From the NCBI GenBank assembly GCA_028688325.1, contig JAQTYI010000001.1, forward strand, positions 302,620 through 366,619: a DNA stretch of 64,000 nucleotides, in the 5' to 3' direction. Shown here one piece after another: positions 15,205 to 50,065 of this stretch; the first letter of the stretch is position 1, and each line of letters opens with the position of its first letter. The notes under the pieces are model-generated. The model saw only the letters and a list, made by a program, of their open reading frames with translations. It ran no database searches and was not told where the DNA came from. Source of the stretch: Candidatus Portnoybacteria bacterium. Lineage in GTDB: Bacteria > Patescibacteriota > Minisyncoccia > Portnoybacterales > GWB1-42-6. The position numbers were made by a program, and so were the translations under genes.

Positions 15205-15252
15205 AAATTGACTATGTAATACGGATTTTTACGGATATACGGATGATTTTTC

Positions 15253-15335
15253 CCCTCTTTTGTAAAGAGGGGTTAGGGGAGATTTAAAGCAGGGGTTCTA
15301 AATCCCTCCTAACCTCCCTTTACGGAAAGGGAGGA
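15253..15335. repeat. Family-2 GC-rich hairpin repeat (CCCCTCTTTTGTAAAGAGGGGTTAGGGGAG modules)
   Basis: Perfect hairpin CCCCTC-N9-GAGGGG followed by TTAGGGGAG. At least 11 copies in the window. Confidence 0.8.
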
Positions 15336-20481: not shown

Positions 20482-20591
20482 TATTTGTTCACGAATAAAA
20501 ATGCTATACTATATAATAAAAGATATGTCGTTTAAATGTCAGTTAAAGCGTTGCACCCCCCTTGTAAAGGGGGGTGAGGGGGGTTAAAATC

Positions 20592-20873
20592 ATGTTTACG
20601 CAAGCTATAAAATTTATTCCTTACAATAAAAATTTAAGCGATAAAGCCGGTAAGTTAAGAAGCCATATGACAGCCGCCGAAAAGAAGTTGTGGTTCAATT
20701 TTCTGCGCGGATACAGATATCGGTTCGTCCGTCAAAAAGTCGTCGCGAACTATATTCTCGATTTTTATTGCCAAAAATTAAAATTGGGCGTTGAAATTGA
20801 CGGAGATTCGCATATTGGAGATAGCAATGAAGTTACGCAAATCATTGATGGGAAGGTAAACGAACAAATATAA
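20592..20873 (+). CDS. DUF559 endonuclease-domain protein (Vsr/restriction-endonuclease-like fold)
   Basis: AEKKLWFNFLRG...YRFVRQKVV...YILDFYCQKLKLGVEIDGDSH. Flanked on both sides by family-2 repeats. Confidence 0.6.
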   Translation: MFTQAIKFIPYNKNLSDKAGKLRSHMTAAEKKLWFNFLRGYRYRFVRQKVVANYILDFYCQKLKLGVEIDGDSHIGDSNEVTQIIDGKVNEQI

Positions 20874-20909
20874 CCCCCAGCCCCCCTTTGCGCAAGGGGG
20901 CCAAAAAAT

Positions 20910-21413
20910 ATGGATTTTATCACAAAAAACGCCGGCGAAACCCAATTGCTATCCGGTAAAATTTTAAAAGAATTAATGGCGCAACGGCGCCGCGTGGCGA
21001 GCGAAGCGAGTTTTACTCGGGGTGCGCTGGTTTTGGCGTTGCAAGGCGAGCTTGGCGCTGGTAAGACGACTTTTATCCAGGGTTTGGCGCAAGCACTGGG
21101 CATAAAAGAAAAGATATTGAGCCCGACATTCGTGATAATGAAACATTTTAAAATAGCGGCTAGCGACTGGCGCCCCTCGACTTCGCTCGGGGTAAAATTT
21201 AAGAATTTTTACCACATGGATTGTTATCGTCTGGAGGGCGGTAAGGACTTGGAAGCTTTTAATTTTAAAGAAATTTTAAAGAACAAAAATAACTTAGTGG
21301 TCATCGAATGGGCCGAACGCGTAAAAGATATCTTGCCCGAAGATACGATCTGGCTGGAATTTGAACACGGAGGAGAAGATATACGGAAAATCCTAATGAC
21401 TAATGACAAATGA
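20910..21413 (+). CDS. tsaE: tRNA threonylcarbamoyladenosine biosynthesis ATPase TsaE
   Basis: P-loop GELGAGKTTFIQG, SPTFV and HMDCYRL motifs. Carries an in-frame PSTSLG mini-repeat insertion. Confidence 0.8.
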   Translation: MDFITKNAGETQLLSGKILKELMAQRRRVASEASFTRGALVLALQGELGAGKTTFIQGLAQALGIKEKILSPTFVIMKHFKIAASDWRPSTSLGVKFKNFYHMDCYRLEGGKDLEAFNFKEILKNKNNLVVIEWAERVKDILPEDTIWLEFEHGGEDIRKILMTNDK

Positions 21414-21546: not shown

Positions 21547-23883
21547 ATGCTCAAAAAACCTGAACAGAAAACCCTGGTTCTTATAGATGGCCACGCTTTG
21601 GTCCATCGCGCCTATCACGCCTTGCCGCCGTTAAATACGGGCAAAGGGGAATTGGTGAACGCGGTTTTCGGGTTTTCTTCGATTTTGTTGAGGGTGCTGA
21701 AAGATTTGTCGCCCGACTATATCGCGGCGACTTTCGATTTGCCCGGCCCGACTTTCCGGCACAAGGAATTTGAGGAATATAAGGCCACGCGTGTCAAAGC
21801 GCCCGATGAGCTCTACGCGCAGATCAAACGCGTGAAAGATGTTTTGGCGGCTTTCAATGTTCCGGTTTTTGAAAAAGCGGGCTATGAGGCCGACGATCTT
21901 TTGGGAACGATCGTACACCAACTAAGAACTAACCTCTCGACTGCGCTCGGGATAAAAAAACATCAACTAAAAACCGTTATCGTGACGGGGGACCTTGATA
22001 CTCTGCAGTTGGTTGATAAAAACACCAGCATTTACACTCTGAAAAAAGGCGTGAAAGACACGATGGTGTATGGCGAGGCGGAGGTCAAAGAGAGGTTCGG
22101 CGGTCTTTTGCCCGAACAAATGAACGACTATAAGGGGCTGAAGGGCGACCCATCCGACAATATTCCGGGCGTGCCGGGAATTGGCGACAAGACCGCGATA
22201 CAGCTGTTGAAAGAATATGGGAATTTGGAAAATTTATATAAGCAGATAGAAAAACAAATAGGCAACCCTTCGACTTCCCTCGATAAATCTCGGGATAAAC
22301 CGCTCAGGGTAAATTCCAAAAAGCTTTTGGAAAAGCTTTTGGAATTTAAAGAACAGGCGATGTTCAGCAAATATCTGGCCACCATCAAACAGGACGCGCC
22401 GATAAAATTCAAGTTGAAGGACGCGCTGACGCGGGATTTTAACAAAGATGAGGTTGTGAAAATTTTCAAGGACCTGGGTTTTTATTCGCTGGTTAACCGT
22501 TTGCCGGAATTCGACAAAAATGGGCAAATTAAAAAAGCCGAGCCGATAAAATCGGCCGAAACAAAGAAGAAAGACAACTCTCAGCTGCCGATGGATCTAG
22601 CGCCCAGCGTTGCCGAAAAAATAGAGCAGGCGCGCGAGCAAGGCGTTTTGTCGGAGAAGGTCTATCAGTTGGAAAAGGATCTGGCGCCGATCATCGCGCA
22701 AATGGAAAAAAACGGCATTAAACTCGATATCGCGTATCTGAAAAAGCTCAGCCAGCGTGTTGACGGCGAGCTGGCATCGCTGGAAAAGGAGATCGTGGAA
22801 TTGGCCGGCGAAGAATTTAATGTTAATTCGCCCCAACAATTATCCCAGATATTATTTGTTAAGCTTGGTTTGCAGGTGAAGGGCTTGAAAAAGACGCCCG
22901 GCAAAGTGATTTCCACCGCGGCCTCGGAATTGGAAAAAATGCGCGGCCAGCATAAAATTATTGATTTGATAATCAGATACCGGGAGCTGGCTAAGCTGAA
23001 AAATACCTATATTGACGCCTTGCCGCTGTTGGTGGCGCCCGATGGCCGCTTGCACACAAGCTATGATTCTTTAGGCACGACCACGGGGCGTCTGTCTTCC
23101 AAAAATCCCAATCTGCAGAATATTCCCATTCGCACTGAGCTTGGCAATGAGATACGCAAGGCGTTCGTGGCAGCCGACGGCTGTAAACTCTTGTCAGCCG
23201 ATTATTCGCAAATTGAACTGCGCGTGGTGGCGCATCTGGCCAACGACAAGGAAATGATAAGGGTTTTCAAAGAGGGCAAGGATATTCATACCGCCACGGC
23301 CGCGGAGGTTCTGGGAATCAAAGAATTGGAAGTGGATAAAGACAGCCGGCGCATGGCCAAAGTTTTAAATTTTGGCGTCATCTACGGCATGAGCATTCAT
23401 GGGTTTGCGCAAGCGGCCGGGGTTGATGTGGCGCGCGCCAAGGAATTTATCAAAAAATATTTTGCCGAGTTTGCCGGCGTGGCCAGATTCATAGAAAAGA
23501 CCAAAAAAAATGCGGCGCACGATTTGTTTGTGCAAACGCTTTTTGGCCGCAAGCGCCTCATTCCGGAAATAAATTCTTCCGCCTGGAATCTGCGCCAAGC
23601 CGCCGAGCGCATGGCGATAAATATGCCGGTTCAGGGTACGGCCGCGGATCTGTTAAAAATGGCGATGGTGAGCATAGCCAAGAGCGAATGGCTTATGGCC
23701 AATAGCAAGATGTTGCTTCAGGTGCACGATGAATTGATTTTTGAAGTGGCGGACGACAAAGTCAAAAAAACGGCGGAAGAAATTAAGAAAATAATGGAAA
23801 ACATTTATCAACTGTCCGTGCCGCTGGCGGTGGATATCGAGGCGGGGGATAATTGGGGAGAACTCGTCCGTTTAATTTTTTAA
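21547..23883 (+). CDS. polA: DNA polymerase I (5'-3' exonuclease plus polymerase domains)
   Basis: 5'-nuclease N-terminus. Polymerase motifs A (DYSQIELR), B (RRMAKVLNFGVIYG) and C (VHDELIFE). 778 aa. Two in-frame mini-repeat insertions (…LSTALGIKKH…, …STSLDKSRDK…). Confidence 0.95.
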   Translation: MLKKPEQKTLVLIDGHALVHRAYHALPPLNTGKGELVNAVFGFSSILLRVLKDLSPDYIAATFDLPGPTFRHKEFEEYKATRVKAPDELYAQIKRVKDVLAAFNVPVFEKAGYEADDLLGTIVHQLRTNLSTALGIKKHQLKTVIVTGDLDTLQLVDKNTSIYTLKKGVKDTMVYGEAEVKERFGGLLPEQMNDYKGLKGDPSDNIPGVPGIGDKTAIQLLKEYGNLENLYKQIEKQIGNPSTSLDKSRDKPLRVNSKKLLEKLLEFKEQAMFSKYLATIKQDAPIKFKLKDALTRDFNKDEVVKIFKDLGFYSLVNRLPEFDKNGQIKKAEPIKSAETKKKDNSQLPMDLAPSVAEKIEQAREQGVLSEKVYQLEKDLAPIIAQMEKNGIKLDIAYLKKLSQRVDGELASLEKEIVELAGEEFNVNSPQQLSQILFVKLGLQVKGLKKTPGKVISTAASELEKMRGQHKIIDLIIRYRELAKLKNTYIDALPLLVAPDGRLHTSYDSLGTTTGRLSSKNPNLQNIPIRTELGNEIRKAFVAADGCKLLSADYSQIELRVVAHLANDKEMIRVFKEGKDIHTATAAEVLGIKELEVDKDSRRMAKVLNFGVIYGMSIHGFAQAAGVDVARAKEFIKKYFAEFAGVARFIEKTKKNAAHDLFVQTLFGRKRLIPEINSSAWNLRQAAERMAINMPVQGTAADLLKMAMVSIAKSEWLMANSKMLLQVHDELIFEVADDKVKKTAEEIKKIMENIYQLSVPLAVDIEAGDNWGELVRLIF

Positions 23884-27161: not shown

Positions 27162-27240
27162 GTTTGGTTGTTGATTTATAATTATTTGTTTTCGGTTCAG
27201 AGGTTGAATAGAATATAGCAGATAAATTACTTTTTGGCAA

Positions 27241-27310
27241 GCCAGGAAGTGAAAATTCGGCAGTGACTTAATTTGCCGCCATGGCGGCAGCCGAATTTCT
27301 ACTTCCTGGC
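27241..27310. mobile_element. Mini-MITE copy c2 (two terminal repeats around a 26-bp palindromic core)
   Basis: GCCAGGAAGTGAAAATTCGGCAG / GCCGAATTTCTACTTCCTGGC. The right repeat encodes the last codons ARK and the TAG stop of uvrB. Confidence 0.75.
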
Positions 27311-29453
27311 AAGTTTTTTTAATTTGTCTATTTCTTCTTTCAGCCGCATGGACTCATCAAATTGCAGATTGCGGTTGGCCAGGTCCATTTTAAATTGCAG
27401 TTCGCGGATATATTCTTTGAGATAGTTCGTGTCCTCCGAAGCTTTAGCGAAGGAGGATCTGCCGGTTTTCACTTCCGCCAGAACTTCCACAATGCTTGCT
27501 CGAATATCCTTAGTTATGGCTTGTGGCGAGATGCGATGTTTTTTATTGTATTCTTCCTGTGTCTGGCGGCGGCGGTTGGTTTCATTGATGGCGCGGCGCA
27601 TCGATTGGGTTACCTTATCTGCATACAAGATTGCCTGGCCATCAAGGTGGCGCGAAGCGCGACCGATGGTCTGGATAAGAGTGGTTTCATTGCGCAAAAA
27701 TCCCTCTTTGTCCGCGTCCAGAATCGCCACGAGCGAAACTTCGGGCAAGTCCAGCCCTTCGCGCAAAAGATTTATGCCGACCAACACATCAAATTCTCCT
27801 TGGCGCAATTTTTTCAAGATTTCCGGCCTCTCCAGCGTCTTGACCTCTGAGTGCAGGTAAGCCGTCTTGATCTTTTCTTCTGTCAGATATTCGGCCAGAT
27901 CCTCGGCCATTCTTTTGGTGAGAGTCGTTACCAGCACCCGCTGTTTTTTTGCCACGCGTTTTTTGATCTCTTTAATGAGATCGGGGATCTGGTTCTGGCT
28001 GGGGCGGACATCGATTTTCGGGTCCAAAAGCCCCGTCGGACGGATGAGTTGTTCAATCACATATTTATTTGTCATCCCGGGTCACCCGCCTCGCCCGACG
28101 AGCGTGCGAGTCGAGGCGGGTGACCCGGGATCCAGATTTGGAAATTTGGGCCTGGATTCCCGCTTCCAGTTTACCCCGCACTTGATGCGGGGCGGGAATG
28201 ACAGAAGAGAAAGGTTTACAATTCACGGCTTGTGTTTTGGCGGTCTCGTATTTCCCCGGCGTGGCGGAGGTATAAATAACCTGGCTTATCTTTTTTTCAA
28301 ATTCCGGGAATTTCAGCGGCCGGTTATCCAGGGCGCTGGGCAAGCGGAAGCCAAAATCAATGAGCGTTTGTTTGCGCGAACGGTCGCCTTCATACATCGC
28401 GCCGATCTGGGGCACGCTCATATGCGACTCATCAATTATCATCAAGAAATCATTCGGATAATAATCCAGCAGGGTGGAGGGGGCGGTGCCGCCTTGGCGC
28501 AGTTCCAGGTGCCGGGAATAATTTTCAATGCCGTGGCAATAGCCGACTTCTTTTAACATTTCCAAATCATAATTGGTGCGCCGGCTCAGGCGCTCGGCTT
28601 CCAAACTTTTGCCATCTTTCCCCAATCTTTTTAATTGTTCGTCCAGTTCGGCACGGATGTTGGCGATGGACGCGTCTATTTTTTTCTGCGGCGAAACCCA
28701 AAATTTCGCCGGATATATCCTGGCGGAATTTATTTGCTCATCTTGTCCGGCAAAGATGTCTTTTAAGGATCGCAGGGGCTTTGCGCTGATGCGGGTTATT
28801 TTATGGGCTTCAAATTCGGCCTTAATTGTCAACTCGCCCGTGGCCAGCCATATCTCAACGATGTTGCCGCGCACCCGGTATGTGCTGCGTTTAAAATCAA
28901 TATCGGAGCGAGTATATTGCAATGCGGCCAGCTGGCGCAAAAAAACTTGCCGGGAAATTTCTTGGCCTTGTTTTATCTCCACGCTCAATCCCTGATAGTC
29001 ACCGGGCGAGCCGATGTTGTAGATGCAGGAAACCGACGCCACCACGATAGCGTCTTCGCGCGTCAGCAAAGATTGCGTGGCGGCATGGCGCAGCCGGTCC
29101 AGCTCCTCGTTTATCTTGGCGTCTTTTTGTATGTAGGTGTCAGTGGTGGGAATATATGCTTCCGGCTGGTAGTAGTCATAATAGGAGACGAAATAGTTTA
29201 CGGAATTATTTGGAAAGAATTCTTTGAATTCCTGGTATAATTGCGCGGCCAAGGTTTTGTTGTGAGAAATTATCAGCGTGGGCTTTTGCACTTTTTCAAT
29301 GACATTGGCCATAGTGAAAGTTTTGCCGCTGCCGGTCACGCCCAAAAGCACCTGGTGCTTGGCGCCGGCGTTCAGATTTTTGACTAATTTATTTATGGCG
29401 TTCGGCTGGTCGCCTGTCGGCTTGTATGGGGCGTGGATTTTGAATTGCGGCAT
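27299..29453 (-). CDS. uvrB: Excinuclease ABC subunit B (UvrB). Reading frame broken by a roughly 140-bp family-1 repeat at about 28068-28207, leaving two overlapping ORFs (27299-28075 and 28065-29453). Possible pseudogene or sequencing frameshift
   Basis: N-terminal ORF has helicase motifs [10 protein letters not shown] and DESH plus the beta-hairpin region. C-terminal ORF resumes at [13 protein letters not shown] and ends with the UvrB C-terminal coiled coil. The N-terminal ORF reads through the repeat and stops in a different frame. Confidence 0.8.
28068..28207. repeat. Family-1 repeat inserted inside uvrB
   Basis: TTGTCATCCCGGGTCACCCGCC...CCCGCACTTGATGCGGGGCGGGAATGACAGAAG. About 140 bp, not a multiple of three. 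Confidence 0.8.
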
Positions 29454-30158: not shown

Positions 30159-31343
30159 ATGGATAAACAAACTTGGAATAAATTTGTTTTAGAAAATGGT
30201 GGTAGCTTTTTGCAATCCTGGGAATGGGGCGAATTTCAAGAAAACATTGGCAGGCGTGTTTTTAGGTTTTTGCATTGTCATCCCGAATTTATTTCGGGAT
30301 CTGATTCAGAGGCCCTGAAACAAGTTCAGGGCGACAAAGGGGGCTGGCGAGCTCAATTCATTGCTAACAAACTACCTGGTGTTAATAAATTTTATTGGCA
30401 TTGTCCGCGCGGGCCGGTTTTGGCCAATGGCGATGAGCAAATGGCAAATAGCCAAATACGGAAAATCATAGACGCGGTTAAAAAATCAGCGGATAAAAAA
30501 GTTATATTTTTTCGTTTTGGGCCCGAGTGGCCTCTTGATTGTCATTCCGGGCTTGACCCGGAATCCAGATCTGGATCCCGCATCGAGTGCGGGATGACAG
30601 AAAAGGATTTAAAAAATATTGGCTTCAAGCAGCTATCATACGATATCGAGCCCTCACAAACGCAAATTTTAGATATTTCAAAAACCGAAGACGAATTGTT
30701 GGCGCAGATGCACGAAAAATGGCGCTACAATATCCGCCTGGCGCAGAAGAAGGGTGTGCAGATAAAATTCACGCAGTCAGAGTGCGTGAATTTTGAGTAT
30801 TATTTTGAGGAATTTTATCGGCTGGTGAGCCAAGGCACTTCGGAGCGCAACAATATCAAGCATCATCCGAAAGAATATTATAGAAAGCAGTTGAAAATTG
30901 GCGCTAAATCTCCCCTGACCCCTCTTTACGAAAGAGGGGAAGACCCTCCTTTTGTAAAGGAGGGCGAGGGAGGATTTAGAGAAACATTATTTGTGGCCGA
31001 ATATGAAGGCAAGGTTATTGCGGCAAATATTGTCGTGATCTTTGGCAATCGCGCCACTTATCTTCACGGCGCCACAAGCAGCGAGCATCGCGAAGTTATG
31101 GCGCCGCATCTTTTGCAATGGGAGCAGATAAAATATGCCAAAGCGCAGGGCTGTTCGGAATACGATTTCTGGGGAGTTGTGAACGAACACACCTTGGACA
31201 GACGCGGCAAATCCTGGGAGGGCTTCACTCGCTTCAAAAAGGGCTTTGGCGGTAAAGAAGCGAATTACATCGGTTATTGGGATTATCCATTTGACAAGAA
31301 GTGGTATTCGTTATATAGATTAGTGCAAAAGTTTAGGAGATAA
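30159..31343 (+). CDS. FemAB-family peptidoglycan bridge aminoacyltransferase-like protein, carrying two in-frame repeat insertions
   Basis: FemAB N-terminus (WNKFVLENGGSFLQSWEWGEFQ). Family-1 insert translated as DCHSGLDPESRSGSRIECGMTEKD. Family-2 insert translated as SPLTPLYERGEDPPFVKEGEGGFRE. Confidence 0.7.
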   Translation: MDKQTWNKFVLENGGSFLQSWEWGEFQENIGRRVFRFLHCHPEFISGSDSEALKQVQGDKGGWRAQFIANKLPGVNKFYWHCPRGPVLANGDEQMANSQIRKIIDAVKKSADKKVIFFRFGPEWPLDCHSGLDPESRSGSRIECGMTEKDLKNIGFKQLSYDIEPSQTQILDISKTEDELLAQMHEKWRYNIRLAQKKGVQIKFTQSECVNFEYYFEEFYRLVSQGTSERNNIKHHPKEYYRKQLKIGAKSPLTPLYERGEDPPFVKEGEGGFRETLFVAEYEGKVIAANIVVIFGNRATYLHGATSSEHREVMAPHLLQWEQIKYAKAQGCSEYDFWGVVNEHTLDRRGKSWEGFTRFKKGFGGKEANYIGYWDYPFDKKWYSLYRLVQKFRR

Positions 31344-31353: not shown

Positions 31354-31474
31354 TTGTCATCCCGGGCTTGACCCGGGATCCAGAGCTTGTCCCCGCGAAA
31401 GCGGGGATCCATTGGGCCTGGATTCCCGCTTCCAGCTTACCCCGCACTTGATGCGGGTCGGGAATGATAGAAGT
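31354..31474. repeat. Family-1 repeat, intergenic
   Basis: TTGTCATCCCGGGCTTGACCCGGGATCCAG ... GGATTCCCGCTTCCAG...CGGGAATGATAGAAG. Confidence 0.8.
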
Positions 31475-32296: not shown

Positions 32297-33779
32297 AAAA
32301 CTGATTCCCGACAGGATGCTGAGCATCTATCATTTCAAATTGGCGCTTTTGGGGGCGCTGGTTTTTGGTTTCCCGAGTAGGAAATTGAGGGTTATTGGCG
32401 TGACGGGAACAAAAGGGAAGTCGACCGTGGTGATGTTGGCGGGGAAGATATTGCAGGAGAATATAACCTCACCCCAACCCTCTCCTTCAAAAGGAGAGGG
32501 GGAAGTTTTTAACCCCCCAACCCCCCTTTGCGTAAGGGGGGATGAAAACGGGGATTTTTGTGAAAGCGGGCAAGCCGAATTTGCCCCCCTTGTAAAGGGG
32601 GGCGCAGGGGGGTTAAAAAATGTCGGATGGATCTCTTCGCTCACGATAAACGACGGGAAAAATGAAACGATGAACCCCTATCATATGACGATGCCAGGCA
32701 GGTTTTTTATTCAAAAGACGCTGGCGCAGATGATAAAAAACGGCTGCGAATACGCGCTGGTTGAAGTGACCAGCGAAGGAATAAAACAGCACCGGCATCG
32801 CTTCATCAACTGGGCGGGCGCGGCGTTCACTAACCTCGCGGCTGAGCATTTGGAAGCGCACGGCGGGTTTGAAAATTACAGAAAAGCCAAAGAGAAACTA
32901 TTTGCCGCCGCGGCAAAAAATGAAGATAGTTTCGGGGTGTATAACCTGGATGATGAAAATGTCGGTGAGTTTTTGAAGTATGGGATCGCAAGAAAAATTG
33001 GATACGGAATTCTTAACCCCCCAACCCCCCTTTGCGTAAGGGGGGATGAAAACGGGGATTTTTGTGAAAGCGGGCAAGCCGAATTTATCGTAAAGGGGGG
33101 CGAAGAGGGGTTAAAGAATTTACGAATTTCCAATATTCAATTATCTGGCAGTGGCTCGGAATTTGTCATCAACGGCGTGGAATTTAAAACCAAATTCTTG
33201 GGTGAGTTCAATATTTATAACTGCGCCGCCGCCGCGGCTATCGGGCAGGTCTGCGGCGTGCCGCTAAAAGTTGCGGCGCAGGCGCTCGCAAAGATAAAAT
33301 CTATTCCGGGTCGATTGGAAATAATTGATGAGGGTCAGGATTTTACGGTCGTGGTTGATCTGGCGCACACGCCGGATTCTTTTGAACAAGTTTTCAGATT
33401 GTTCGGAGAGTTGAAGCAAAATAAAATCATCTCGGTTTTCGGCGCGGCCGGCGGCGGGCGCGATAAATGGAAGCGGCCGGAACTTGGCAGAATCGCCTCG
33501 GCTTATTCGGACCAGGTTTTTATTACCAATGAAGACCCGTATGAGGAGGACCCTCTTAAAATAGCGGATGAAATATTGGCCGGGTGCGATAAGAGTAAAA
33601 CCGACATAATCTTGGACCGCCGGCAGGCCATTGCCCGCGCCTTGTCTTTGGCGCGCAAGGGTGATATAGTTTTAATCCTCGGTAAAGGAACGGAACAAAC
33701 GATGGTTGCCAGCGATAAAAAATATGATTGGGATGACAGAAGGGTCGTTCGCGAGGAATTGAAAAAAATAGTTCATTAA
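32280..33779 (+). CDS. murE: Mur ligase family protein (MurE-like UDP-MurNAc-tripeptide synthetase) with two in-frame copies of a roughly 100-bp GC-rich repeat
   Basis: P-loop VIGVTGTKGKSTV. DLAHTPDS. C-terminal SVFGAAGGGRDKWKRPELGRIA...ITNEDPYEEDP. Both inserts translate to the identical stretch NPPTPLCVRGDENGDFCESGQAEF. Confidence 0.7.
   Translation: MKQLLKKLIPDRMLSIYHFKLALLGALVFGFPSRKLRVIGVTGTKGKSTVVMLAGKILQENITSPQPSPSKGEGEVFNPPTPLCVRGDENGDFCESGQAEFAPLVKGGAGGLKNVGWISSLTINDGKNETMNPYHMTMPGRFFIQKTLAQMIKNGCEYALVEVTSEGIKQHRHRFINWAGAAFTNLAAEHLEAHGGFENYRKAKEKLFAAAAKNEDSFGVYNLDDENVGEFLKYGIARKIGYGILNPPTPLCVRGDENGDFCESGQAEFIVKGGEEGLKNLRISNIQLSGSGSEFVINGVEFKTKFLGEFNIYNCAAAAAIGQVCGVPLKVAAQALAKIKSIPGRLEIIDEGQDFTVVVDLAHTPDSFEQVFRLFGELKQNKIISVFGAAGGGRDKWKRPELGRIASAYSDQVFITNEDPYEEDPLKIADEILAGCDKSKTDIILDRRQAIARALSLARKGDIVLILGKGTEQTMVASDKKYDWDDRRVVREELKKIVH
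32470..32630. repeat. Family-2b GC-rich repeat inside murE (copy 1)
   Basis: CCCCCCAACCCCCCTTTGCGTAAGGGGGGATGAAAACGGGGATTTTTGTGAAAGCGGGCAAGCCGAATTT... identical over about 70 nt to the copy at 33015-33115. Confidence 0.8.
33015..33115. repeat. Family-2b repeat inside murE (copy 2)
   Basis: Same sequence as copy 1. Confidence 0.8.
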
Positions 33780-33790
33780 AATAAAACCCC

Positions 33791-33941
33791 GCAGAGGGCG
33801 GAGAAACCAGGCGATGGCAGCCAAGATGGGCTCATAACCCATCTTTGACGAGGCGATGTTGGCGTTAATTCATCCGGCGCCAATTACTTTTGTATGTTAA
33901 TTCGTTTCTCGTTGCGGGTTCGATTCCCGTCCGCCCTCTGC
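33791..33941 (+). ncRNA. tRNA-like structured RNA. Canonical T-arm plus 7-bp acceptor (extendable to a 12-bp terminal helix), a CAU 'anticodon-like' hairpin, and a roughly 70-nt extra segment. Possible intron-containing or insertion-bearing tRNA(Met/Ile2-CAU), or a tRNA-like attachment site
   Basis: 5' GCAGAGGGCGGA pairs perfectly with 3' TCCGCCCTCTGC. T-arm GCGGG-TTCGATT-CCCGT. Hairpin GATGGG-CTCATAA-CCCATC. No canonical D-arm or spacing could be fitted. Confidence 0.35.
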
Positions 33942-34044
33942 TCCTAAATAACGCCTCGAGCGATTCTGCCGGGGCTTTTTATTTCCGATCTTCGCTTGGG
34001 TTTTAATTTAAATGCTTCAGTATAATAGTATACTGAAGCATTTT

Positions 34045-34083
34045 TGGGATCAATAAAAAAGCCCCGATGAGGTTCCATCGGGG
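34045..34083 (-). terminator. Intrinsic terminator downstream of the reverse transcriptase gene
   Basis: CCCCGATG-AGGTTC-CATCGGGG followed on the minus strand by a T-run. Confidence 0.6.
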
Positions 34084-34085
34084 TG

Positions 34086-35039: not shown

Positions 35040-35045
35040 TTGTTC

Positions 35046-35294: not shown

Positions 35295-35398
35295 ATTGTT
35301 AAGGTGCTAAACAAAGATAATTGATAGTAGCTATTTTTATTAAGGAAGTCAAGAAATAAAAAACCCCGCGCTTGATGTTGATGCGCGGGGTCGAGTTT

Positions 35399-35782: not shown

Positions 35783-35909
35783 AAGACCCTCCTTGTGGGT
35801 GGTATGGGTAGCTGATAAGAACTATATCTGATAGTTATATTATATCAAAACGCTATGAATATGTCAATAGTAGCGCTAAAATACCGGAAAGTGTATAATA
35901 TATCGGTAT

Positions 35910-36221
35910 GCCAGGTAGTAGAAATTCGACAGCGATTATGTTCTATTATGTTTATATTTTAGAGAGTTTAAAGAATAAGGAATTGTATGTCGGTTACACG
36001 GGTGATTTAAACAAGAGAATAAAAGAACATAATCGCGGATTGGTTTTTTCTACAAAACCATATCTGCCTTGGCTAATTATATTTTACGAGGCCTATAGGA
36101 GCGAAAAAGACGCCAGAAGGAGAGAGGCGTATTTAAAGACCAGCCAAGGCAGCAGATTGTTAAAAAGAATGCTTAAAGAATATTTTTATAATAAAGAATA
36201 AGTCGAATTTTCACTACCTGG
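35910..36221. mobile_element. Autonomous-looking member of the MITE family: terminal inverted repeats enclosing a GIY-YIG nuclease gene
   Basis: Left repeat GCCAGGTAGTAGAAATTCGACAGCG. Right repeat GTCGAATTTTCACTACCTGG. The same repeats as the non-coding MITE copies. Confidence 0.75.
35938..36201 (+). CDS. Small GIY-YIG nuclease family protein (87 aa) carried inside the repeat-flanked element
   Basis: MFYYVYILESLKNKELYVGYTGDLNKRIKEHNRG...R...AYLKT...LLKRML. GIY...YVG and catalytic R/E/N spacing. Confidence 0.75.
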   Translation: MFYYVYILESLKNKELYVGYTGDLNKRIKEHNRGLVFSTKPYLPWLIIFYEAYRSEKDARRREAYLKTSQGSRLLKRMLKEYFYNKE

Positions 36222-36348
36222 AATGAAAAACTACGCTTCAGCCAGGGCGGGAAGGGGCAAAACGACCTATCGCACGCCGAGCGTATTTAAATATCAGAAG
36301 TGCCGGAAGGTGGAGAAAATTAAAATGGTTAATAAAAATATTAAACAA

Positions 36349-40463: not shown

Positions 40464-41842
40464 CCTGGTTGATAAAAATTGAAAAAGCGCTGTTTTATTT
40501 TTTCACTTTCGCTTTTTTTTGGCAGTTGCGCCTGGTTTGGCAACCATTCGGCGGCGCGTTCAATGAGTGGGCTTCCGTTTATCTTTACGCCACAGATATC
40601 ATCATCGTGGCGATTTTATTTTTATGGGCTGTCAGGATTTTAAAAGATGGCATCAAAATAAAATGTGGCCGGCCGGAAATATTCTTGAGCGTATTTTTAA
40701 TGATTGTCGGCGCTTCGGTTGTTTTTGCCCAGAATAAATTATTGGCCGGTTACGGGTTTTTAAAATTGCTGGAAATGTCCGCGTTGTTTCTTTATGTCAA
40801 GCATAATTTTTCCGTGCTTTACGGCTTGAAAAGTTTCTGGCGTTGGTTCATTGCCGGAGCGGCATTGAATAGCGCGGTGGCGATAAACCAGTTTTTTGCC
40901 CAAAAAAGCTTGGGCTTGAAAATTTTTGCTGAAAGCCCGTTGGCGTCAAATATCGACGGCGTGGCGAAAATTATCGTCAACGGGGCCAAAATAATGCGCG
41001 CCTATGGCTTGGTGCCGCATCCCAATATTTTGGCGGCGATCTTAATGGCGGCAATTTTTGGAATGGCGTGGCTGTGGCTGAAACAATACAATGAGTGTCA
41101 TCATGGGTCGAGCTCGGGATCCAGGTCTTGGATTCCCGTTTTCACGGGAATGACAAAGAGAGCTGATTGTTTTTTGTCCGCATCGATTTTCATTTTTTTG
41201 TTATCCGCCCTTTTTTTCACCTTTTCCCGCGGCGTAACTATTGTCGGATTTGCGGCGCTTGCGGCCTGGTTGATTTTTGTCTGGCTGAAAAATAAAGAAT
41301 ACAGGAAGCCGATTTTGGGTATTTTTTTGCTATTTGCTATTTGCTATTCGCTATTGGCTATTATCTGCCGGCCTTATGTTTCTGCGCGCTACGATGCCGG
41401 CGCGCTATCTGGAAGCCAGGCCGTCAATTTAAGATACTTTTACAACCAGGAAGCGCTGACGATGATAGAAAAAAATCCCTTCCTGGGAGTTGGGCAGGGA
41501 AATTTTGTCTGGGCGCTGACTCGTTCGGATATTGCCAATTTTGAGCCGTGGATGGCTCAGCCCGTGCACAATATTTATTTGCTTATCGCTTCAGAAACCG
41601 GCCCGTTGGGCTTGCTTGCATTTTTGCTGTTTTTATTCTTTACTATAAGGGCCGCGTGGAAATATCGACATAATTTGTCGGAAAGTCATTTGCTGTTTAT
41701 TGTCGGCGCATTGCTGCTCATTGGACTTTTCGACCATTTTTTGTGGGATTTGCAGCAAGGGCAAATTTTGTTCTGGCTGGTGCTGGGAATTTTAGCGAGC
41801 TTTAGTTTAAATGATCAAGTAGAGTCGAGCCCTCGTAGTTGA
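40460..41842 (+). CDS. O-antigen ligase (WaaL/Wzy_C) family membrane protein with an in-frame family-1 repeat insertion. The 3' end overlaps the tRNA-Arg gene
   Basis: Multi-transmembrane protein with HNIYLLIASETGPLGLLAFLLF, a Wzy_C signature. Insert translated as ECHHGSSSGSRSWIPVFTGMTKRAD. Confidence 0.7.
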   Translation: MTWLIKIEKALFYFFTFAFFWQLRLVWQPFGGAFNEWASVYLYATDIIIVAILFLWAVRILKDGIKIKCGRPEIFLSVFLMIVGASVVFAQNKLLAGYGFLKLLEMSALFLYVKHNFSVLYGLKSFWRWFIAGAALNSAVAINQFFAQKSLGLKIFAESPLASNIDGVAKIIVNGAKIMRAYGLVPHPNILAAILMAAIFGMAWLWLKQYNECHHGSSSGSRSWIPVFTGMTKRADCFLSASIFIFLLSALFFTFSRGVTIVGFAALAAWLIFVWLKNKEYRKPILGIFLLFAICYSLLAIICRPYVSARYDAGALSGSQAVNLRYFYNQEALTMIEKNPFLGVGQGNFVWALTRSDIANFEPWMAQPVHNIYLLIASETGPLGLLAFLLFLFFTIRAAWKYRHNLSESHLLFIVGALLLIGLFDHFLWDLQQGQILFWLVLGILASFSLNDQVESSPRS

Positions 41843-44442: not shown

Positions 44443-45558
44443 ATGAAAAAACAGGTAAAAGCGCTGGTTTTGCTCTCGGGCGGCTTGGATTCTATCCTGG
44501 CCGTCAAATTGTTATTGGAGCAGGGAATCATTGTTGAGGCGGTGAATTTTCGCACTAATTTTTGCGGGCCGAGCAAGGCGCGCCTCGCCGCAAAAATGCT
44601 CGGAGTAAACTTAAGAGAGGTGAATATCAGGAAAGATTTTTTGCCCATTTTGAAACACCCCAGGCACGGCTACGGCACGGGCTTGAATCCTTGCATCGAT
44701 TGCCACGCTTTGATGCTGAAAAAAGCCGGGGAAATTATGCGTGCGGAGGGATTTGATTTCATTGCCACGGGCGAGGTGCTGGGCGAGCGGCCAATGAGCC
44801 AACATAAAAAGGCCTTGGATATTGTGGCTAAAGACGCGGATATTGTCGGCTATCTTTTGCGGCCGCTGTCGGCTAAATTGCTTGAGCCGACCATCGCGGA
44901 GAATGAAGGGGTGGTGGATAGGGAAAGATTATTGAATATTTCCGGCCGGAGCCGCAAAATACAGATGGCACTGGCCGAGCAATACGGCATCAAAGAATAT
45001 CCGACCCCTGCCGGCGGCTGCGCGCTGACGCAAAAGGGTTTTGCGGACCGCTTGCGCGAGCTGATGGCCAACAAGTCGGATTTTAATTCAGACGATGTGG
45101 ATCTGGTGGCGATAGGGCGGCATTTTTGGGTCGCCGTTTCTTGTCATCCCGGACTTGATCCGGGATCCAGTATCTCGAATGAAGACATGGATTCCCGCTT
45201 TCCCTCCTTCGCCTGCGGCTTTGGAAGGGCGCGGCGCGGGAATGACAGAAGAGAGAGCGGTGTCCAAATTATTCTCGGCCGCAACCAGGAAGAAAATAAT
45301 ATTTTAGAAAACATAGCCGGGCAAGGTGATATTTTGGTTGCGCCGGATAATTTTGTCGGACCTCTGGCTTTGGTCCGCGGCGCTACTTTTTGTCATCCTG
45401 AACTTGGTTCAGGATCTCAAGACAAGGGATCCCGAAACGAGTTCGGGATGACAGAAAAAGATATAATTGACAAAGCCAAGGAATTAATCTTGCAATTTTC
45501 GCCCAAAGCGAAGGACTTGGGAAAAGAGGATTTAAGGTTTAAGATTAAATTAATATGA
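44443..45558 (+). CDS. PP-loop ATP pyrophosphatase (ThiI/MnmA-like tRNA sulfurtransferase family) with two in-frame family-1 repeat insertions
   Basis: SGGLDS PP-loop. NPCIDCH. ATGEVLGERPMSQ. Inserts translated as CHPGLDPGS...GNDRRE and CHPELGSGSQDKGSRNEFGMTEKD. Confidence 0.55.
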   Translation: MKKQVKALVLLSGGLDSILAVKLLLEQGIIVEAVNFRTNFCGPSKARLAAKMLGVNLREVNIRKDFLPILKHPRHGYGTGLNPCIDCHALMLKKAGEIMRAEGFDFIATGEVLGERPMSQHKKALDIVAKDADIVGYLLRPLSAKLLEPTIAENEGVVDRERLLNISGRSRKIQMALAEQYGIKEYPTPAGGCALTQKGFADRLRELMANKSDFNSDDVDLVAIGRHFWVAVSCHPGLDPGSSISNEDMDSRFPSFACGFGRARRGNDRRESGVQIILGRNQEENNILENIAGQGDILVAPDNFVGPLALVRGATFCHPELGSGSQDKGSRNEFGMTEKDIIDKAKELILQFSPKAKDLGKEDLRFKIKLI

Positions 45559-49262: not shown

Positions 49263-49799
49263 TTAACGGGATTTGCTGATTAACATATAAAATCCTCTGG
49301 GTTCTTTGGTGATGGGCTGGTCGATGATCGTCGGAATCTGGATATAATTTTTAAAATCTTCCAATTTTTCTTTGGCGAGGTGGCCGAAGGCCTTTTCTCG
49401 TCCCCGCAAAACTATGGAGATTCTGGCGCGGTCGCCCTTTTCCAAGAATTTCTGCGTTTGGGCCGCTTTCATTTCCAGGTCGTGTTTGGCGATATTGAAG
49501 CTCAGCCGGATATTTTTAATTTCAACCTTATGGGTCTTGGTCATCTCCTTGGCTTTCTTTTCTTTCTGGTACAGGAATTTGCCGTAGTCGATTATCTTGC
49601 AGACCGGCGGAACGGCTTTGTCCGTTATCTCCACCAGGTCCAGCCCCCGATCATACGCCAGGGCCAGCGCGTCGGCGGTTTTCATCACGCCAAGCTGCAC
49701 TCCTTTTTCATCAACCACGCGAACTTCCGCCGCACGGATGAAACCGTTGATGCGATTCTGTGGCTGCCTCGGCTGGTTAAAAAATGGTTTTCTTATCAA
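49263..49799 (-). CDS. infC: Translation initiation factor IF-3
   Basis: INGFIRAAEVRVVDEKG...VCKIIDYGKF..., IF3 N and C domains. Confidence 0.9.
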   Translation of the reverse strand: MIRKPFFNQPRQPQNRINGFIRAAEVRVVDEKGVQLGVMKTADALALAYDRGLDLVEITDKAVPPVCKIIDYGKFLYQKEKKAKEMTKTHKVEIKNIRLSFNIAKHDLEMKAAQTQKFLEKGDRARISIVLRGREKAFGHLAKEKLEDFKNYIQIPTIIDQPITKEPRGFYMLISKSR

Positions 49800-50065
49800 G
49801 GTTTGGGGTTAGTGATTAAATGATTTGCCAGTTGTTTTTTCAAAAATTTTCTGCCCGATCCGCTTTTGAGGAATTTTTCTCTGCCCAGTGCATCAAATTT
49901 ATTCAAATATAATTCCGCGTATATCAATTCCCAGTTATCCTTCTTGCTCGTATACGGGGATTTTTTATATTTATGTTCTTGCAGTCGTTGCTTTAGATTC
50001 GAAGTAAAACCAATATACCAGCTTTTATCATTTTGGTTTTCAAGAATATATACAACGTAATGCAT
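49796..50065 (-). CDS. Small GIY-YIG nuclease family protein (second copy) lodged between the tmRNA 3' end and infC
   Basis: MHYVVYILENQNDKSWYIGFTSNLKQRLQEHKYKK... Start-stop overlap ATGA with infC. Confidence 0.7.
   Translation of the reverse strand: MHYVVYILENQNDKSWYIGFTSNLKQRLQEHKYKKSPYTSKKDNWELIYAELYLNKFDALGREKFLKSGSGRKFLKKQLANHLITNPKP

What the first reader, a model, noticed from the sequence alone, without database searches (positions are those of the whole stretch)
30539..30980. Short palindromic repeats inserted in frame into essential genes (RPE-like phenomenon)
At least three repeat families are translated as part of long, otherwise conserved ORFs without breaking the frame. (1) Family 1 (GTCATCCCG-hairpin-CGGGATCCAG...GGATTCCCG-hairpin-CGGGAATGACA) inside the FemAB-like gene, the WaaL-like gene (41105-41160) and twice in the ThiI-like gene (45141-45252, 45400-45454). 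(2) Family 2/2b (CCCCTC-N9-GAGGGG-TTAGGGGAG) inside the FemAB-like gene (30910-30980), twice in murE (32470-32630 and 33015-33115, identical over about 70 nt) and in argS (53095-53175). (3) A PSTSLG mini-repeat (CCTCGACTNCGCTCGGG) in tsaE and twice in polA. This is the same behaviour as Rickettsia palindromic elements, which add peptide segments to proteins. It would be notable in a streamlined CPR-type genome.
Basis: seen in the sequence. Interest (0 to 1): 0.8.

Follow-up and report, generated by a model that had tools for sequence, protein, structure and literature searches.

The report
Hairpin repeats translated inside essential genes
In this Portnoybacteria (CPR) genome, small hairpin-forming selfish DNA repeats sit in frame inside at least eight housekeeping genes and add floppy loops to the proteins; this is the behaviour already known from Rickettsia palindromic elements, and one of the repeat families is the same one.

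Summary
The window comes from a Candidatus Portnoybacteria MAG (789-kb contig). It holds 13 repeat-derived inserts in 8 genes: femAB x3, murE x2, wzy x1, thiI-like x2, argS x1, tsaE x1, polA x2 and uvrB x1. Twelve keep the reading frame. Orthologues have the same sites empty or filled with other repeats. AlphaFold models of FemAB and MurE put pLDDT<50 exactly on the inserts. Family 1 is not CPR-specific. It matches the published Ssn-related motif (SRM; NTS/dRS3; "CGTC-REP" superfamily, which includes Rickettsia RPE-4 and RPE-6). It occurs in many phyla and is flanked by small GIY-YIG (Ssn) nuclease genes. Family 2 hairpins flank DUF559 endonuclease genes, here and in 59 metagenome loci. New points: orthologous in-gene copies are 92-100% identical in DNA while the host gene is about 72% identical, with third codon positions near 50%. 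Compensatory stem changes occur. uvrB is split into two ORFs by a nested +37-nt insertion into a resident in-frame element, whose terminal ATG restarts translation. Verdict: a real feature, and a new member of a known kind (intragenic REP/RPE). Its density is unusually high in this window, and the DUF559 pairing may be undescribed.

The parts
30159..31343 (+). femAB-family gene (394 aa) carrying three inserts
   Evidence: Pfam FemAB E=1e-40. The AF2 model matches FemX structures. Orthologues without inserts are 320-337 aa.
30276..30344 (.). Insert 1 in FemAB (aa 40-62): F1 variant TGTCATCCCGAA..TTCGGGATC + GCCCTGAAACAAGTTCAGGGC
   Evidence: Absent in L001, L002 and L129; present in L004, L127 and L128 at 85-91% nt identity. 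pLDDT<50 at residues 42-59.
30540..30599 (.). Insert 2 in FemAB (aa 128-147, CHSGLDPESRSGSRIECGMT): 60-nt F1/SRM dimer
   Evidence: Same codon position in 6 species, at 92-100% nt identity against 66-78% for the rest of the gene. Matches the SRM pattern. DNA fold z=-5.2. pLDDT<50 at residues 127-144.
30905..30978 (.). Insert 3 in FemAB (aa 251-274): F2 dimer, with outer stem TAAATCTCCCC/GGGAGGATTTA and two CCCCTC/GAGGGG-type hairpins
   Evidence: 95% complementary to the intergenic F2 copies at 15250 and 15932 (I5/I6). The site is empty in L001 and L129. Fold z=-6.1. pLDDT<50 at residues 251-270.
32460..32624 (.). F2 composite insert 1 in murE (aa 61-115)
   Evidence: Alignment to PDB MurE leaves about 50 extra residues. 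The site is empty in most orthologues. pLDDT<50 at residues 63-112.
33012..33122 (.). F2 composite insert 2 in murE (aa 245-281); 77 nt are 99% identical to insert 1
   Evidence: D15. The site is empty or differently filled in orthologues. pLDDT<50 at residues 247-276.
41096..41155 (.). 60-nt F1 dimer in the Wzy_C/O-antigen-ligase-like gene (CHHGSSSGSRSWIPVFTGMT); the left hairpin is decayed
   Evidence: The site is empty in L001 and carries other F1-type peptides in L002 and L004. Fold z is only -2.1.
45142..45247 (.). F1 element with internal cargo in the thiI-like gene (aa 241-279)
   Evidence: Matches the SRM pattern. Absent in most of the 12 homologues aligned.
45391..45453 (.). 63-nt F1 dimer in the thiI-like gene (CHPELGSGSQDKGSRNEFGMT)
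   Evidence: Fold z=-6.9. Absent in homologues.
53096..53131 (+). Single F2 unit (CCCTCCTTCAGGAGGGGTTAGGGGAGAT) in the DALR domain of argS
   Evidence: PDB ArgRS alignments are gapped over 'fppsggvrg'.
21159..21200 (+). PSTSLG-type mini-insert in tsaE
   Evidence: Motif at 21175. The site is empty in L005 and differently filled in L002.
21925..21966 (+). PSTSLG-type mini-insert 1 in polA (NLSTALGIKK)
   Evidence: the site is empty in L001 and L005.
22264..22320 (+). PSTSLG-type mini-insert 2 in polA (NPSTSLDKSRDKPLRVNS)
   Evidence: the site is empty in L001 and L002, and a shorter version is present in L005.
28070..28203 (.). 134-nt F1 element with three nested expansions that splits uvrB
   Evidence: One search gives the frames, the TAA stop and the overlapping ATG. 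One search compares DNA with the intact 61-nt orthologous element of L211: differences of +24, +12 and +37 nt. RNA fold -82 kcal/mol, z=-7.5.
28065..29453 (-). uvrB N-terminal ORF (462 aa; the last ~55 aa are encoded by the element)
   Evidence: Residues 3-407 align to B. caldotenax UvrB 4-404. Annotated as a separate protein in two NCBI assemblies.
27299..28075 (-). uvrB C-terminal ORF (258 aa), starting at the ATG of the element's terminal ATGACA
   Evidence: Residues 6-253 align to UvrB 407-655. Pfam Helicase_C and UvrB.
31355..31469 (.). Intergenic F1 element. Other intergenic F1 copies: 10471-10635, 36350-36480, 47833-47892, 50737-50809 and 51609-51808.
15250..15334 (.). Intergenic F2 dimer. 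Other intergenic F2 copies: 15932-16036, 43933-44010 and 48369-48486.
20549..20908 (+). F2 unit - DUF559 endonuclease ORF (20592-20873, C-terminally truncated) - inverted F2 unit
   Evidence: Pfam DUF559 E=8e-16. Sequence. The same architecture occurs in L094 and across 59 metagenome loci.
35907..36229 (+). Small GIY-YIG (Ssn-like) ORF 35938-36201 flanked by inverted F3 repeats; an F1/SRM element lies 150 nt downstream
   Evidence: Pfam GIY-YIG E=2e-16. 41% identical to the SRM-flanked GIY-YIG genes of L015 and L107. Sequence.
49796..50065 (-). Second small GIY-YIG ORF (89 aa)
   Evidence: Pfam GIY-YIG E=3e-15.

Best explanation
The inserts are copies of small, non-autonomous, hairpin-forming repeat elements of the REP/MITE type. 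They landed inside genes and survived only where they add a tolerated, translated surface loop.

**Family 1.** It is built from inverted pairs of a ~29-nt unit (TGTCAT-CCCGnn-CTTGA-nnCGGG-ATCCAG). This is the published Ssn-related motif (NTS/dRS3/CGTC-REP, the superfamily that holds Rickettsia RPE-4 and RPE-6).

**Family 2.** It is built from inverted pairs of a ~37-nt unit (C-rich/G-rich hairpin plus a GGGGAG tail).

**Autonomous counterparts (shown).** Each family has one: a tiny endonuclease gene flanked by the same units. For family 1 it is a GIY-YIG Ssn-type gene; for family 2 it is a DUF559 (Vsr-like PD-(D/E)xK) gene.

**Spread (inferred).** These nucleases, acting on single-stranded hairpin DNA, are presumed to be responsible for the spread of the units.

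**Selection filter (shown by pattern).**
- Insertions that shift the frame, carry a stop or hit folded regions are lost.
- For a 60-nt family 1 dimer only phase 0 is stop-free, so every such insert reads Cys-His...Gly-Met-Thr.
- The same few loops are therefore hit or retained again and again in different lineages. An example is the linker between the two helicase domains of UvrB.

**After fixation (shown; cause inferred).** The in-gene copies stay intact as DNA elements. Orthologous copies are far more conserved at synonymous positions than their host genes, and stems change by compensatory pairs.

**Nested insertion (shown).** Elements also insert into the loops of resident elements. In uvrB a +37-nt nested insertion broke the frame. 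The result is two overlapping ORFs (stop TAA, restart at the element's own ATG) that together still encode a complete UvrB.
For: **Insert status**
- Sites are empty or filled in FemAB, MurE, Wzy and UvrB, TsaE and PolA, the ThiI-like protein and ArgS against PDB.

**Loops**
- AF2 pLDDT<50 only at residues 42-59, 127-144 and 251-270 of FemAB. The core matches FemX.
- In MurE it falls only at residues 63-112 and 247-276.

**Family identity**
- The SRM pattern gives 7 hits against 0.2 in shuffles.
- The exact 20-nt core occurs in at least 120 stretches from many phyla, Rickettsiales included.
- Stem covariation: N1:N9 pair in 138/139, N2:N8 in 132/139, loop positions in 2/139.

**Nuclease partners**
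- L015 holds an SRM-GIY-YIG-SRM unit. L107, L043 and L115 are similar.
- The window has two GIY-YIG ORFs.
- F2-DUF559-F2 occurs in the window, in L094 and in 59 loci. Hairpins lie upstream in 34 and downstream in 25 of these, against 1/45 and 3/45 in controls.

**Phase filter**
-.

**DNA-level conservation**
- FemAB insert 2 is 92-100% identical against 66-78% for the rest of the gene. Third positions are 85-100% against about 50% (Fisher p=2e-17).
- Compensatory changes: CCCGCA/TGCGGG to CCCACA/TGTGGG, and CCAGATCTGG against CCAGGCCTGG.
- The locus-specific variant is unique in each locus.

**uvrB**
-.

**Generality**
- In-frame SRMs occur in Moranbacteria PPDK-like and MiaA genes and in a deltaproteobacterial oxidase.

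**Literature**
- PMC11893778; PMC3733652; PMC10969869.
Against: - No transposition activity has ever been shown for Ssn or DUF559 proteins, and no target-site duplication could be seen at filled against empty sites. The mobility mechanism is therefore inferred.
- No GIY-YIG gene directly flanked by family 1 units lies in this window. The window's GIY-YIG genes are flanked by a different repeat (F3) or by none.
- The DUF559 copy is truncated.
- Translation through the inserts is inferred from frame conservation, not observed.
- The strong conservation of in-gene copies could reflect gene conversion rather than selection. An intergenic F1 copy inside a 99-100% identical block shows 5 differences in 131 nt, more than its flanks.
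- Some in-gene copies (wzy, murE insert 2) are structurally decayed.
- The PSTSLG family rests on very short motifs.
Confidence: 0.8

Rival explanations
1. The in-gene elements are not merely tolerated junk. They are host-selected DNA (or RNA) sites. One possibility is recognition sites of Ssn/DUF559 nucleases that control recombination or uptake of single-stranded DNA, as proposed for NTS in Neisseria. Another is structured pause sites. On this reading the genes carry two overlapping codes.
For: - Synonymous positions inside orthologous inserts are 85-100% identical, against about 50% in the host gene, across six species.
- The loop sequence CTTGA is conserved across phyla.
- A locus-specific variant is inherited vertically.
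- Stem changes are compensatory.
- NTS/Ssn modulate transformation in Neisseria (PMC11893778).
Against: - Many orthologues lack the inserts altogether and keep the gene.
- Some copies decay.
- Occupancy differs between close relatives.
- Conservation may serve the element's own propagation, or result from gene conversion, rather than host benefit.
Confidence: 0.3
2. The repeat segments are not translated. They are removed from the mRNA, or skipped by the ribosome (translational bypassing, as in phage T4 gene 60 or the 'byp' elements of Magnusiomyces mitochondria).
For: - The elements are strong hairpins inside coding sequence.
- One copy (uvrB) is out of frame.
Against: - 12 of 13 inserts are multiples of three and stop-free, and nested insertions are also multiples of three (24 nt in L128). 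Neither constraint would apply if the segments were skipped.
- Only the stop-free phase is ever used.
- No matching take-off and landing codons flank the uvrB element.
- Rfam finds no intron or ribozyme.
Confidence: 0.03
3. The in-frame continuity, or the uvrB frameshift, is an assembly or sequencing artefact at repeats.
For: - Repeats break assemblies; the L130 contig ends inside uvrB.
- The uvrB frame could be restored by a 1-nt change within CCCGGG.
Against: - The same inserts occur at the same codons in independent assemblies from different samples and species.
- The uvrB N-fragment is identical in two NCBI assemblies.
- Both arms of the nested hairpin are perfectly complementary (CCCGGG on each side), and the +37-nt difference from L211 is a whole nested palindrome, not a homopolymer slip.
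Confidence: 0.03
4. uvrB in this genome is a decaying pseudogene, rather than a functional two-piece gene.
For: - NCBI calls only the N fragment as a protein.
- Relatives all keep a single ORF.
Against: - There is no other stop or frameshift.
- Both halves are about 70-80% identical to relatives and cover UvrB residues 4-404 and 407-655 without loss.
- The break lies at the inter-domain linker.
- The stop and the start overlap (ATGACAAATAA), as in translationally coupled genes.
Confidence: 0.25

Closest known systems
Rickettsia palindromic elements (RPE; Ogata et al. 2000, as summarised in PMC10969869 and PMC3733652)
   Same: - Palindromic repeats inserted in frame into unrelated housekeeping genes, uvrB, polA-type and tRNA-related genes among them.
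- They add 20-50 aa segments compatible with the fold.
- Copies occur both intergenically and in genes.
- RPE-4 and RPE-6 belong to the same CGTC-tagged REP superfamily as family 1.
   Different: - The host is a CPR/Patescibacteria lineage, not an alphaproteobacterial endosymbiont.
- Units are shorter (29-37 nt units, 60-165 nt composites) than RPE-1 (~150 bp).
- At NCBIfam the inserts hit no family.
- A second, unrelated family (F2) behaves the same way.
- The density in this window is higher: 8 of about 50 genes.
Ssn-related motifs / NTS / dRS3 and SsnA GIY-YIG ssDNA nucleases (Chenal et al. 2025, PMC11893778)
   Same: - Family 1 units match the SRM search pattern.
- They have the same head (GTCAT), an 8-9-bp stem with covariation, a 5-nt loop and an ATCCAG tail.
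- Inverted pairs flank small single-domain GIY-YIG genes (L015, L107).
- They are enriched in symbiont-like small genomes.
   Different: - In N. meningitidis only 2% of NTS are inside genes. Here 7 of 12 intact units lie in coding sequence.
- CPR is not mentioned in that paper's main text.
- No nuclease assay exists for this lineage.
CGTC- and GTAG-tagged REPs with intragenic copies (Di Nocera et al. 2013, PMC3733652)
   Same: - Head-to-head dimers.
- Intragenic copies encoding 20-30 aa, concentrated in repair, replication and tRNA genes.
- The same site is hit in related species.
   Different: - That survey found CGTC repeats in five phyla, none of them CPR.
- It concluded that no dedicated enzyme was known.
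- It did not report nucleotide-level conservation of orthologous intragenic copies, or gene fission.
REP/REPIN-RAYT systems and classical bacterial MITEs (Correia, ERIC, BOX)
   Same: - Non-autonomous inverted-repeat elements with a single-copy enzyme gene flanked by the same repeats.
- Occasional in-frame fusions.
   Different: - No GTAG head and no Y1 transposase (RAYT) was seen in the window.
- The partner genes are GIY-YIG and DUF559 nucleases.
- No target-site duplication was detected.
Translational-bypass 'byp' elements of yeast mitochondria and T4 gene 60 (own knowledge)
   Same: GC-rich hairpin elements inserted inside protein-coding genes.
   Different: Those elements are out of frame or stop-containing and are skipped by the ribosome. 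Here the frame and the absence of stops are conserved, so read-through translation is the simpler explanation.

Membership tests
Ssn-related motif (SRM / NTS-like hairpin; Chenal 2025) | Matches the degenerate pattern HGTCWYN(0-2)YYVSBRHN(0-5)WNVSBRGN(0-2)RNCYNB, enriched over dinucleotide shuffles | tested here: met
   7 hits in 64 kb against a mean of 0.2 in 100 shuffles. Two of the hits are inside femAB and the thiI-like gene.
Ssn-related motif (SRM / NTS-like hairpin; Chenal 2025) | Hairpin with an oriented conserved head; the stem is maintained by covariation | tested here: met
   In 139 copies from many phyla, unconstrained stem positions pair in 138/139 and 132/139, and loop positions in 2/139.
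Ssn-related motif (SRM / NTS-like hairpin; Chenal 2025) | Flanks a small single-domain GIY-YIG (cd10448) gene: the NTS-ssnA-NTS architecture | tested here: met
   Met in other genomes: L015 3594-3954, and L107, L043 and L115. In the window the two GIY-YIG ORFs have SRMs within 0.15-2 kb but are not directly flanked. cd10448 membership itself was not tested.
Ssn-related motif (SRM / NTS-like hairpin; Chenal 2025) | Cleaved as single-stranded DNA by the cognate Ssn nuclease | not testable with these tools
   Needs purified protein and oligonucleotide assays.
Rickettsia palindromic elements (RPE) | Palindromic repeat inserted in frame in ORFs, adding a peptide segment at a structurally permissive site | tested here: met
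   12 in-frame inserts. Sites are empty in orthologues. AF2 gives low-confidence loops at the inserts.
Rickettsia palindromic elements (RPE) | Sequence or peptide similarity to the defined RPE families | tested here: inconclusive
   At NCBIfam, E<=1, the inserts hit no family; I did not confirm that the release holds RPE-domain models. The link rests on the literature: RPE-4/-6 = CGTC REPs = dRS3. The exact family 1 core is also present in Rickettsiales MAGs L107 and L116. No R. conorii sequence was compared directly.
MITE (miniature inverted-repeat transposable element) | Terminal inverted repeats, small size, multiple copies | tested here: met
   TGTCAT...ATGACA termini; 60-200 nt; at least 12 copies in 64 kb.
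MITE (miniature inverted-repeat transposable element) | Target-site duplication and a cognate transposase | tested here: inconclusive
   No duplication is visible at filled against empty sites, but the flanks are too diverged to be sure. No DDE or Y1 transposase domain was hit among the ~48 window ORFs (all the long ones, some short ones) scanned at Pfam.
REP/REPIN-RAYT | GTAG head and an associated IS200/IS605-like Y1 transposase | tested here: not met
   The head is (T/C)GTC, not GTAG. No Y1_Tnp hit in the window.
DUF559-associated hairpin repeats (proposed here for family 2) | C-rich/G-rich hairpins immediately flanking DUF559 genes on both sides | tested here: met
   Window 20549-20908 and L094. 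In 59 loci, hairpins lie upstream in 34, downstream in 25 and on both sides in 19. Controls give 1/45, 3/45 and 0/45.

The most novel reading that the evidence does not exclude
The in-gene hairpin elements are live, sequence-constrained nuclease recognition sites rather than inert passengers. Family 1 copies inside essential genes would remain targets of Ssn-type GIY-YIG ssDNA nucleases. Family 2 with DUF559 would be a second, so far undescribed nuclease-hairpin pair of the same logic (PD-(D/E)xK instead of GIY-YIG). On this reading CPR housekeeping genes carry an overlapping DNA-level code that is conserved more strongly than their own synonymous sites. Nested insertion into such sites can split genes (uvrB) into functional two-piece genes that use the element's ATG.
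Probability: 0.3. Interest if true: 0.75.

Novelty: new member of a known kind. Interest (0 to 1): 0.5.

Why it matters
[quoted passage not shown] There it affects a large share of core genes in a ~0.8-Mb genome: cell-wall, tRNA-modification, aminoacylation, replication and repair genes.
- **Annotation.** Unrecognised inserts inflate protein lengths, create spurious "novel" segments and split genes.
- **Test cases.** The window links three literatures (RPE, CGTC-REP/dRS3, Ssn nucleases) on one set of loci, and it offers natural test cases:
  - orthologous in-gene copies whose DNA is conserved far beyond the host gene's synonymous sites;
  - a candidate second nuclease-repeat pair (DUF559 with C/G-rich hairpins);
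  - a UvrB split at its inter-domain linker by a nested insertion.
- **What these make testable.** Whether these repeats are mobilised by their small nucleases, and whether they are maintained for the element or for the host.

Tried and rejected
- **Rfam.** A gathering-threshold scan of the window found only tmRNA and one tRNA, so no known RNA family covers the repeats.
- **RPE-domain models.** At NCBIfam, E<=1, the inserts hit no family.
- **Literature.** Searches for CPR or Patescibacteria together with palindromic, MITE or in-frame terms, and for the typical peptides (AFAGMT, IPAKAGI and others), found nothing relevant in the held library. The TIGR-Tas preprint that came up is unrelated.
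- **Target-site duplications.** A search at filled against empty sites was inconclusive because the flanks are diverged.
- **Pre-adaptation to translation.** Rejected. Open frames total 29 against 30.7 expected from shuffles; genic copies are simply the stop-free subset.
- **Recombination tracts ending at repeats.** The 99-100% identical block shared with L130 starts about 195 nt from the murE repeat, and repeat density makes the proximity insignificant.
- **uvrB in the closest relative.** L130 could not inform, because its contig ends inside the gene.
- **Family 2 counting.** My regular expression for family 2 units failed, so family 2 counts are manual.
- **Splicing, intein and bypass readings.** Considered and rejected on frame and stop conservation.
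Full report
**Source and host genes.** The FemAB protein of the window is 100% identical to a protein of a Candidatus Portnoybacteria MAG on a 788,852-bp contig (record GCA_028710785.1). Pfam and NCBIfam confirm the host genes:
- femAB, 30159-31343
- murE, 32280-33779
- a Wzy_C/O-antigen-ligase-like gene, 40460-41842
- a thiI/MnmA-like gene, 44419-45558
- argS, 51820-53442
- polA, 21547-23883
- tsaE, 20910-21413 (named from its position and its alignment with the Pfam-annotated TsaE genes of L002 and L005)
- uvrB, in two pieces

.

Family 1 (F1) is an inverted pair of about 29-nt units: TGTCAT, an 8-9-bp stem, the loop CTTGA, and the tail ATCCAG. Together they give TGTCAT...ATGACA palindromes of 60-200 nt.

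Family 2 (F2) is an inverted pair of about 37-nt units: a C-rich/G-rich hairpin plus TTAGGGGAGATTTA.

A third, very short PSTSLG-type motif occurs in tsaE and twice in polA.

One is a third insert in femAB (30276-30344). The other is an F1 element (28070-28203) lying exactly between two ORFs that are the N- and C-terminal parts of uvrB. In total I count 13 inserts in 8 genes, and 12 keep the frame without stops.

**They are insertions in permissive loops.**
- Thirty FemAB orthologues (40-78% identical) have each of the three sites either empty (proteins of 320-337 aa), filled with the same element, or filled with a different repeat-derived peptide (DNA).
- The same holds for:
  - MurE, which has three variable sites;
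  - Wzy;
  - TsaE and PolA;
  - the ThiI-like protein;
  - ArgS, compared with solved structures.
- In UvrB the linker SATPGKYE...EQLIRPTGL is 25-26 aa at baseline but 29-97 aa in most relatives. It often carries SVIPAKAGIQ..GSRVKHGMTNKY, an F1 dimer.
- The AlphaFold2 model of FemAB (pLDDT 78.5) has pLDDT<50 only at residues 42-59, 127-144 and 251-270, which are the three inserts. Its core matches FemX crystal structures.
- The MurE model has pLDDT<50 only at residues 63-112 and 247-276, which are the two inserts.

**What family 1 is.** These came from:
- Alpha-, Beta-, Gamma- and Deltaproteobacteria
- Coxiellaceae
- Rickettsiales
- SAR324
- Nitrospira
- Chloroflexi
- Rhodothermales
- many CPR classes

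All showed the same dimer architecture. In the 139 copies, the two unconstrained outer positions of the N9 pair in 138 and 132 cases, using at least 8 pair types. The next position pairs in 2 cases, and the loop is CTTGA in 87.

In several loci the unit directly flanks a 95-aa GIY-YIG ORF: L015 3594-3954 (Pfam E=9e-17) and L107, L043 and L115. This is the system published by Chenal et al. 2025 (PMC11893778):
- NTS is CGTCATTCCCGCGMAVGCGGGAATCYRG.
- It is generalised as Ssn-related motifs (SRM).
- SRMs are bound and cut as single-stranded DNA by SsnA, a small GIY-YIG nuclease whose gene is typically flanked by the motif.

Their degenerate SRM pattern hits 7 F1 units in the window, against 0.2 in shuffles. 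Di Nocera et al. 2013 (PMC3733652) had placed dRS3 and Rickettsia conorii RPE-4 and RPE-6 in one CGTC-tagged REP superfamily. They listed intragenic copies in uvrA, uvrB, polA, recBCD and tRNA-synthetase genes of several phyla. At NCBIfam the inserts hit no family, so similarity to RPE-1-type elements is not shown.

**What family 2 is.**
- At 20549-20908, two inverted F2 units flank a DUF559 (Vsr-like PD-(D/E)xK) ORF. Its Pfam E-value is 8e-16 and it is C-terminally truncated.
- A deltaproteobacterial DUF559 gene (L094) is flanked by CCCCTCTCCAC...GTGGAGAGGGG hairpins.
- I fetched 59 DUF559 loci from metagenomes. A GC-rich perfect hairpin of this C-stem/G-stem type lies within 130 nt upstream in 34, downstream in 25 and on both sides in 19. 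Control windows 400-530 nt away give 1/45, 3/45 and 0/45.
- I found no paper describing this pairing in the held library.

The window also has two small GIY-YIG ORFs. One of them, 35938-36201, is flanked by the inverted repeats of a third family, F3. F3 otherwise occurs as about 140-nt copies.

**Why the peptides look constant.** In a 60-nt F1 dimer, phase 1 runs into the TGA of the terminal ATGACA. Phase 2 runs into the TGA of the loop CTTGA. Only phase 0 (TGT CAT ... ATG ACA) is open. This explains why all five in-frame F1 inserts read CH...GMT or a derivative. The elements as a whole are not enriched in open frames: 29 observed against 30.7 expected from shuffles. Genic copies have 1-4 open frames and intergenic copies 0-2. 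This is what a selection filter predicts, not design.

**Conservation at the DNA level.**
- FemAB insert 2 sits at the same codon in six species.
- Pairwise identity is 92-100% inside the 60 nt, with third codon positions at 85-100%. The rest of the gene is 66-78% identical, with third positions at 42-60%. Fisher p is 2e-17 for the window against five others.
- Changes that do occur keep pairing. CCCGCA/TGCGGG becomes CCCACA/TGTGGG in L128. The central CCAGGCCTGG is CCAGATCTGG in the window.
- The TTCCGGG...CCCGGAA stem variant of this copy is unique in the window. In each related locus it occurs only at this site. That argues for vertical inheritance of this copy rather than overwriting by the commonest variant.
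- Insert 1 (85-91%) and an F2 insert shared by L002 and L004 (92%) behave alike.
- There are caveats. The wzy copy and murE insert 2 are structurally decayed. An intergenic F1 copy inside a 99-100% identical block shows 5 differences in 131 nt. Gene conversion therefore remains a rival to purifying selection.

**uvrB.**
- The N ORF (residues 3-407) aligns to B. caldotenax UvrB 4-404. The C ORF (residues 6-253) aligns to 407-655. Nothing is missing, and the break is at the linker between the two helicase domains.
- The N ORF reads through the element and stops at a TAA just after it. The C ORF starts at the ATG of the terminal ATGACA, 8 nt upstream of that TAA.
- A relative (L211) has a 61-nt in-frame F1 dimer at the same junction. 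The window copy differs by +24 nt in the left loop, +12 nt in the spacer and +37 nt in the right loop. The +37 nt is a complete nested palindrome, and only it is not a multiple of three.
- The N fragment is annotated identically in two NCBI assemblies.
- I judge a real split most likely. Whether the two pieces function cannot be decided here.
- Nested in-frame insertion is also seen in L128, where 24 nt sit inside insert 1.

**Generality.** In the fetched loci, in-frame SRMs lie inside a PPDK_N-domain protein and inside MiaA of Moranbacteria, and inside a deltaproteobacterial amine oxidase. In the window, 7 of 12 intact F1 units and 8 of 19 F2 units are in coding sequence. Chenal et al. report 2% for NTS in N. 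meningitidis.

**Verdict.** The phenomenon is a new member of a known kind: intragenic REP/RPE, of the SRM superfamily.

These points go beyond the literature I could search:
- the occurrence in CPR and its density there
- the nucleotide-level conservation of orthologous in-gene copies
- the DUF559-hairpin pairing
- the nested-insertion split of uvrB

The mobility mechanism (nuclease-mediated, single-stranded) is inferred, not shown.

Noticed in passing
window 1238-1375, 18995-19136, 27025-27165, 27238-27317, 35907-36229, 37909-38050, 44311-44445, 51273-51412: A third repeat family (F3): about 140-nt elements with terminal inverted repeats CATGCCAGGTAGTAGAAATTCGAC. One long copy carries a GIY-YIG ORF (35938-36201). 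The outer CAT/ATG of the repeat coincides with the start codon of real genes at 1240(-), 18997(-), 27027(-, rpsT), 38044(+), 44443(+, thiI-like) and 51275(-, smpB). The element therefore either targets ATG or supplies the 5' leader and start of neighbouring genes.
   Followed up: partly
window 20549-20908; loci L094, L131-L210: DUF559 (Vsr-like) endonuclease genes are flanked by C-rich/G-rich hairpins of the family 2 type far more often than control positions: 34/59 and 25/59 against 1/45 and 3/45. I found no description of this pairing in the held literature.
   Followed up: yes
window about 32817-37789 against L130 about 4040-9030: A 5-kb block is 99-100% identical to the closest relative's contig, while the flanks are 78-88% identical. 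The block holds the 3' two-thirds of murE, the RT gene, GIY-YIG/F3, an intergenic F1 and the RNase J-like gene. This indicates recent recombination or transfer between lineages. The boundaries are near repeats but not at them.
   Followed up: partly
window 34086-35039 (-): A reverse-transcriptase gene (RVT_1, 317 aa) lies downstream of murE and is conserved in position in L127 and L130. Its type (DGR, retron or group II) was not determined.
   Followed up: no
window 54477-55925 (-): A single 482-aa ORF combines a LexA DNA-binding domain, Peptidase_S24 and an N6_N4 DNA methyltransferase domain. This is an unusual fusion.
   Followed up: no
window 49796-51275: smpB (50823-51275, -), tmRNA (50222-50610, -) and a small GIY-YIG gene (49796-50065, -) are adjacent. 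The GIY-YIG gene lies directly 3' of the tmRNA gene.
   Followed up: no
window 13236-13372, 21387-21516, 38654-38754, 48918-48957: Intergenic arrays of AATGAC/ATTGGTCATT-type short repeats form long imperfect palindromes (D13, D14, I1, I14). Their nature is unknown.
   Followed up: no
window 56560-57240: An AT-rich stretch has a 40-nt motif (ATTAAAAAT..AATAATATGG) repeated about every 200 nt, each ending on an ATG. It looks like an array of small paralogous ORFs with a shared upstream signal.
   Followed up: no
locus L128 about 3130-3160 (femAB insert 1); locus L211 (uvrB linker): Nested elements occur in other genomes too. L128 has a 24-nt hairpin inserted in frame into the loop of the resident F1 hairpin. 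L211's uvrB carries a second repeat type (ANRPLRRSFSEANKSP) next to the F1 dimer.
   Followed up: partly
window 32280-33779 and orthologues (alignment A2): MurE in this lineage lacks the usual N-terminal Mur ligase domain. It begins with a conserved hydrophobic helix (MKKLLKKxIP..YHWKLALLGALVYGFPS).
   Followed up: no
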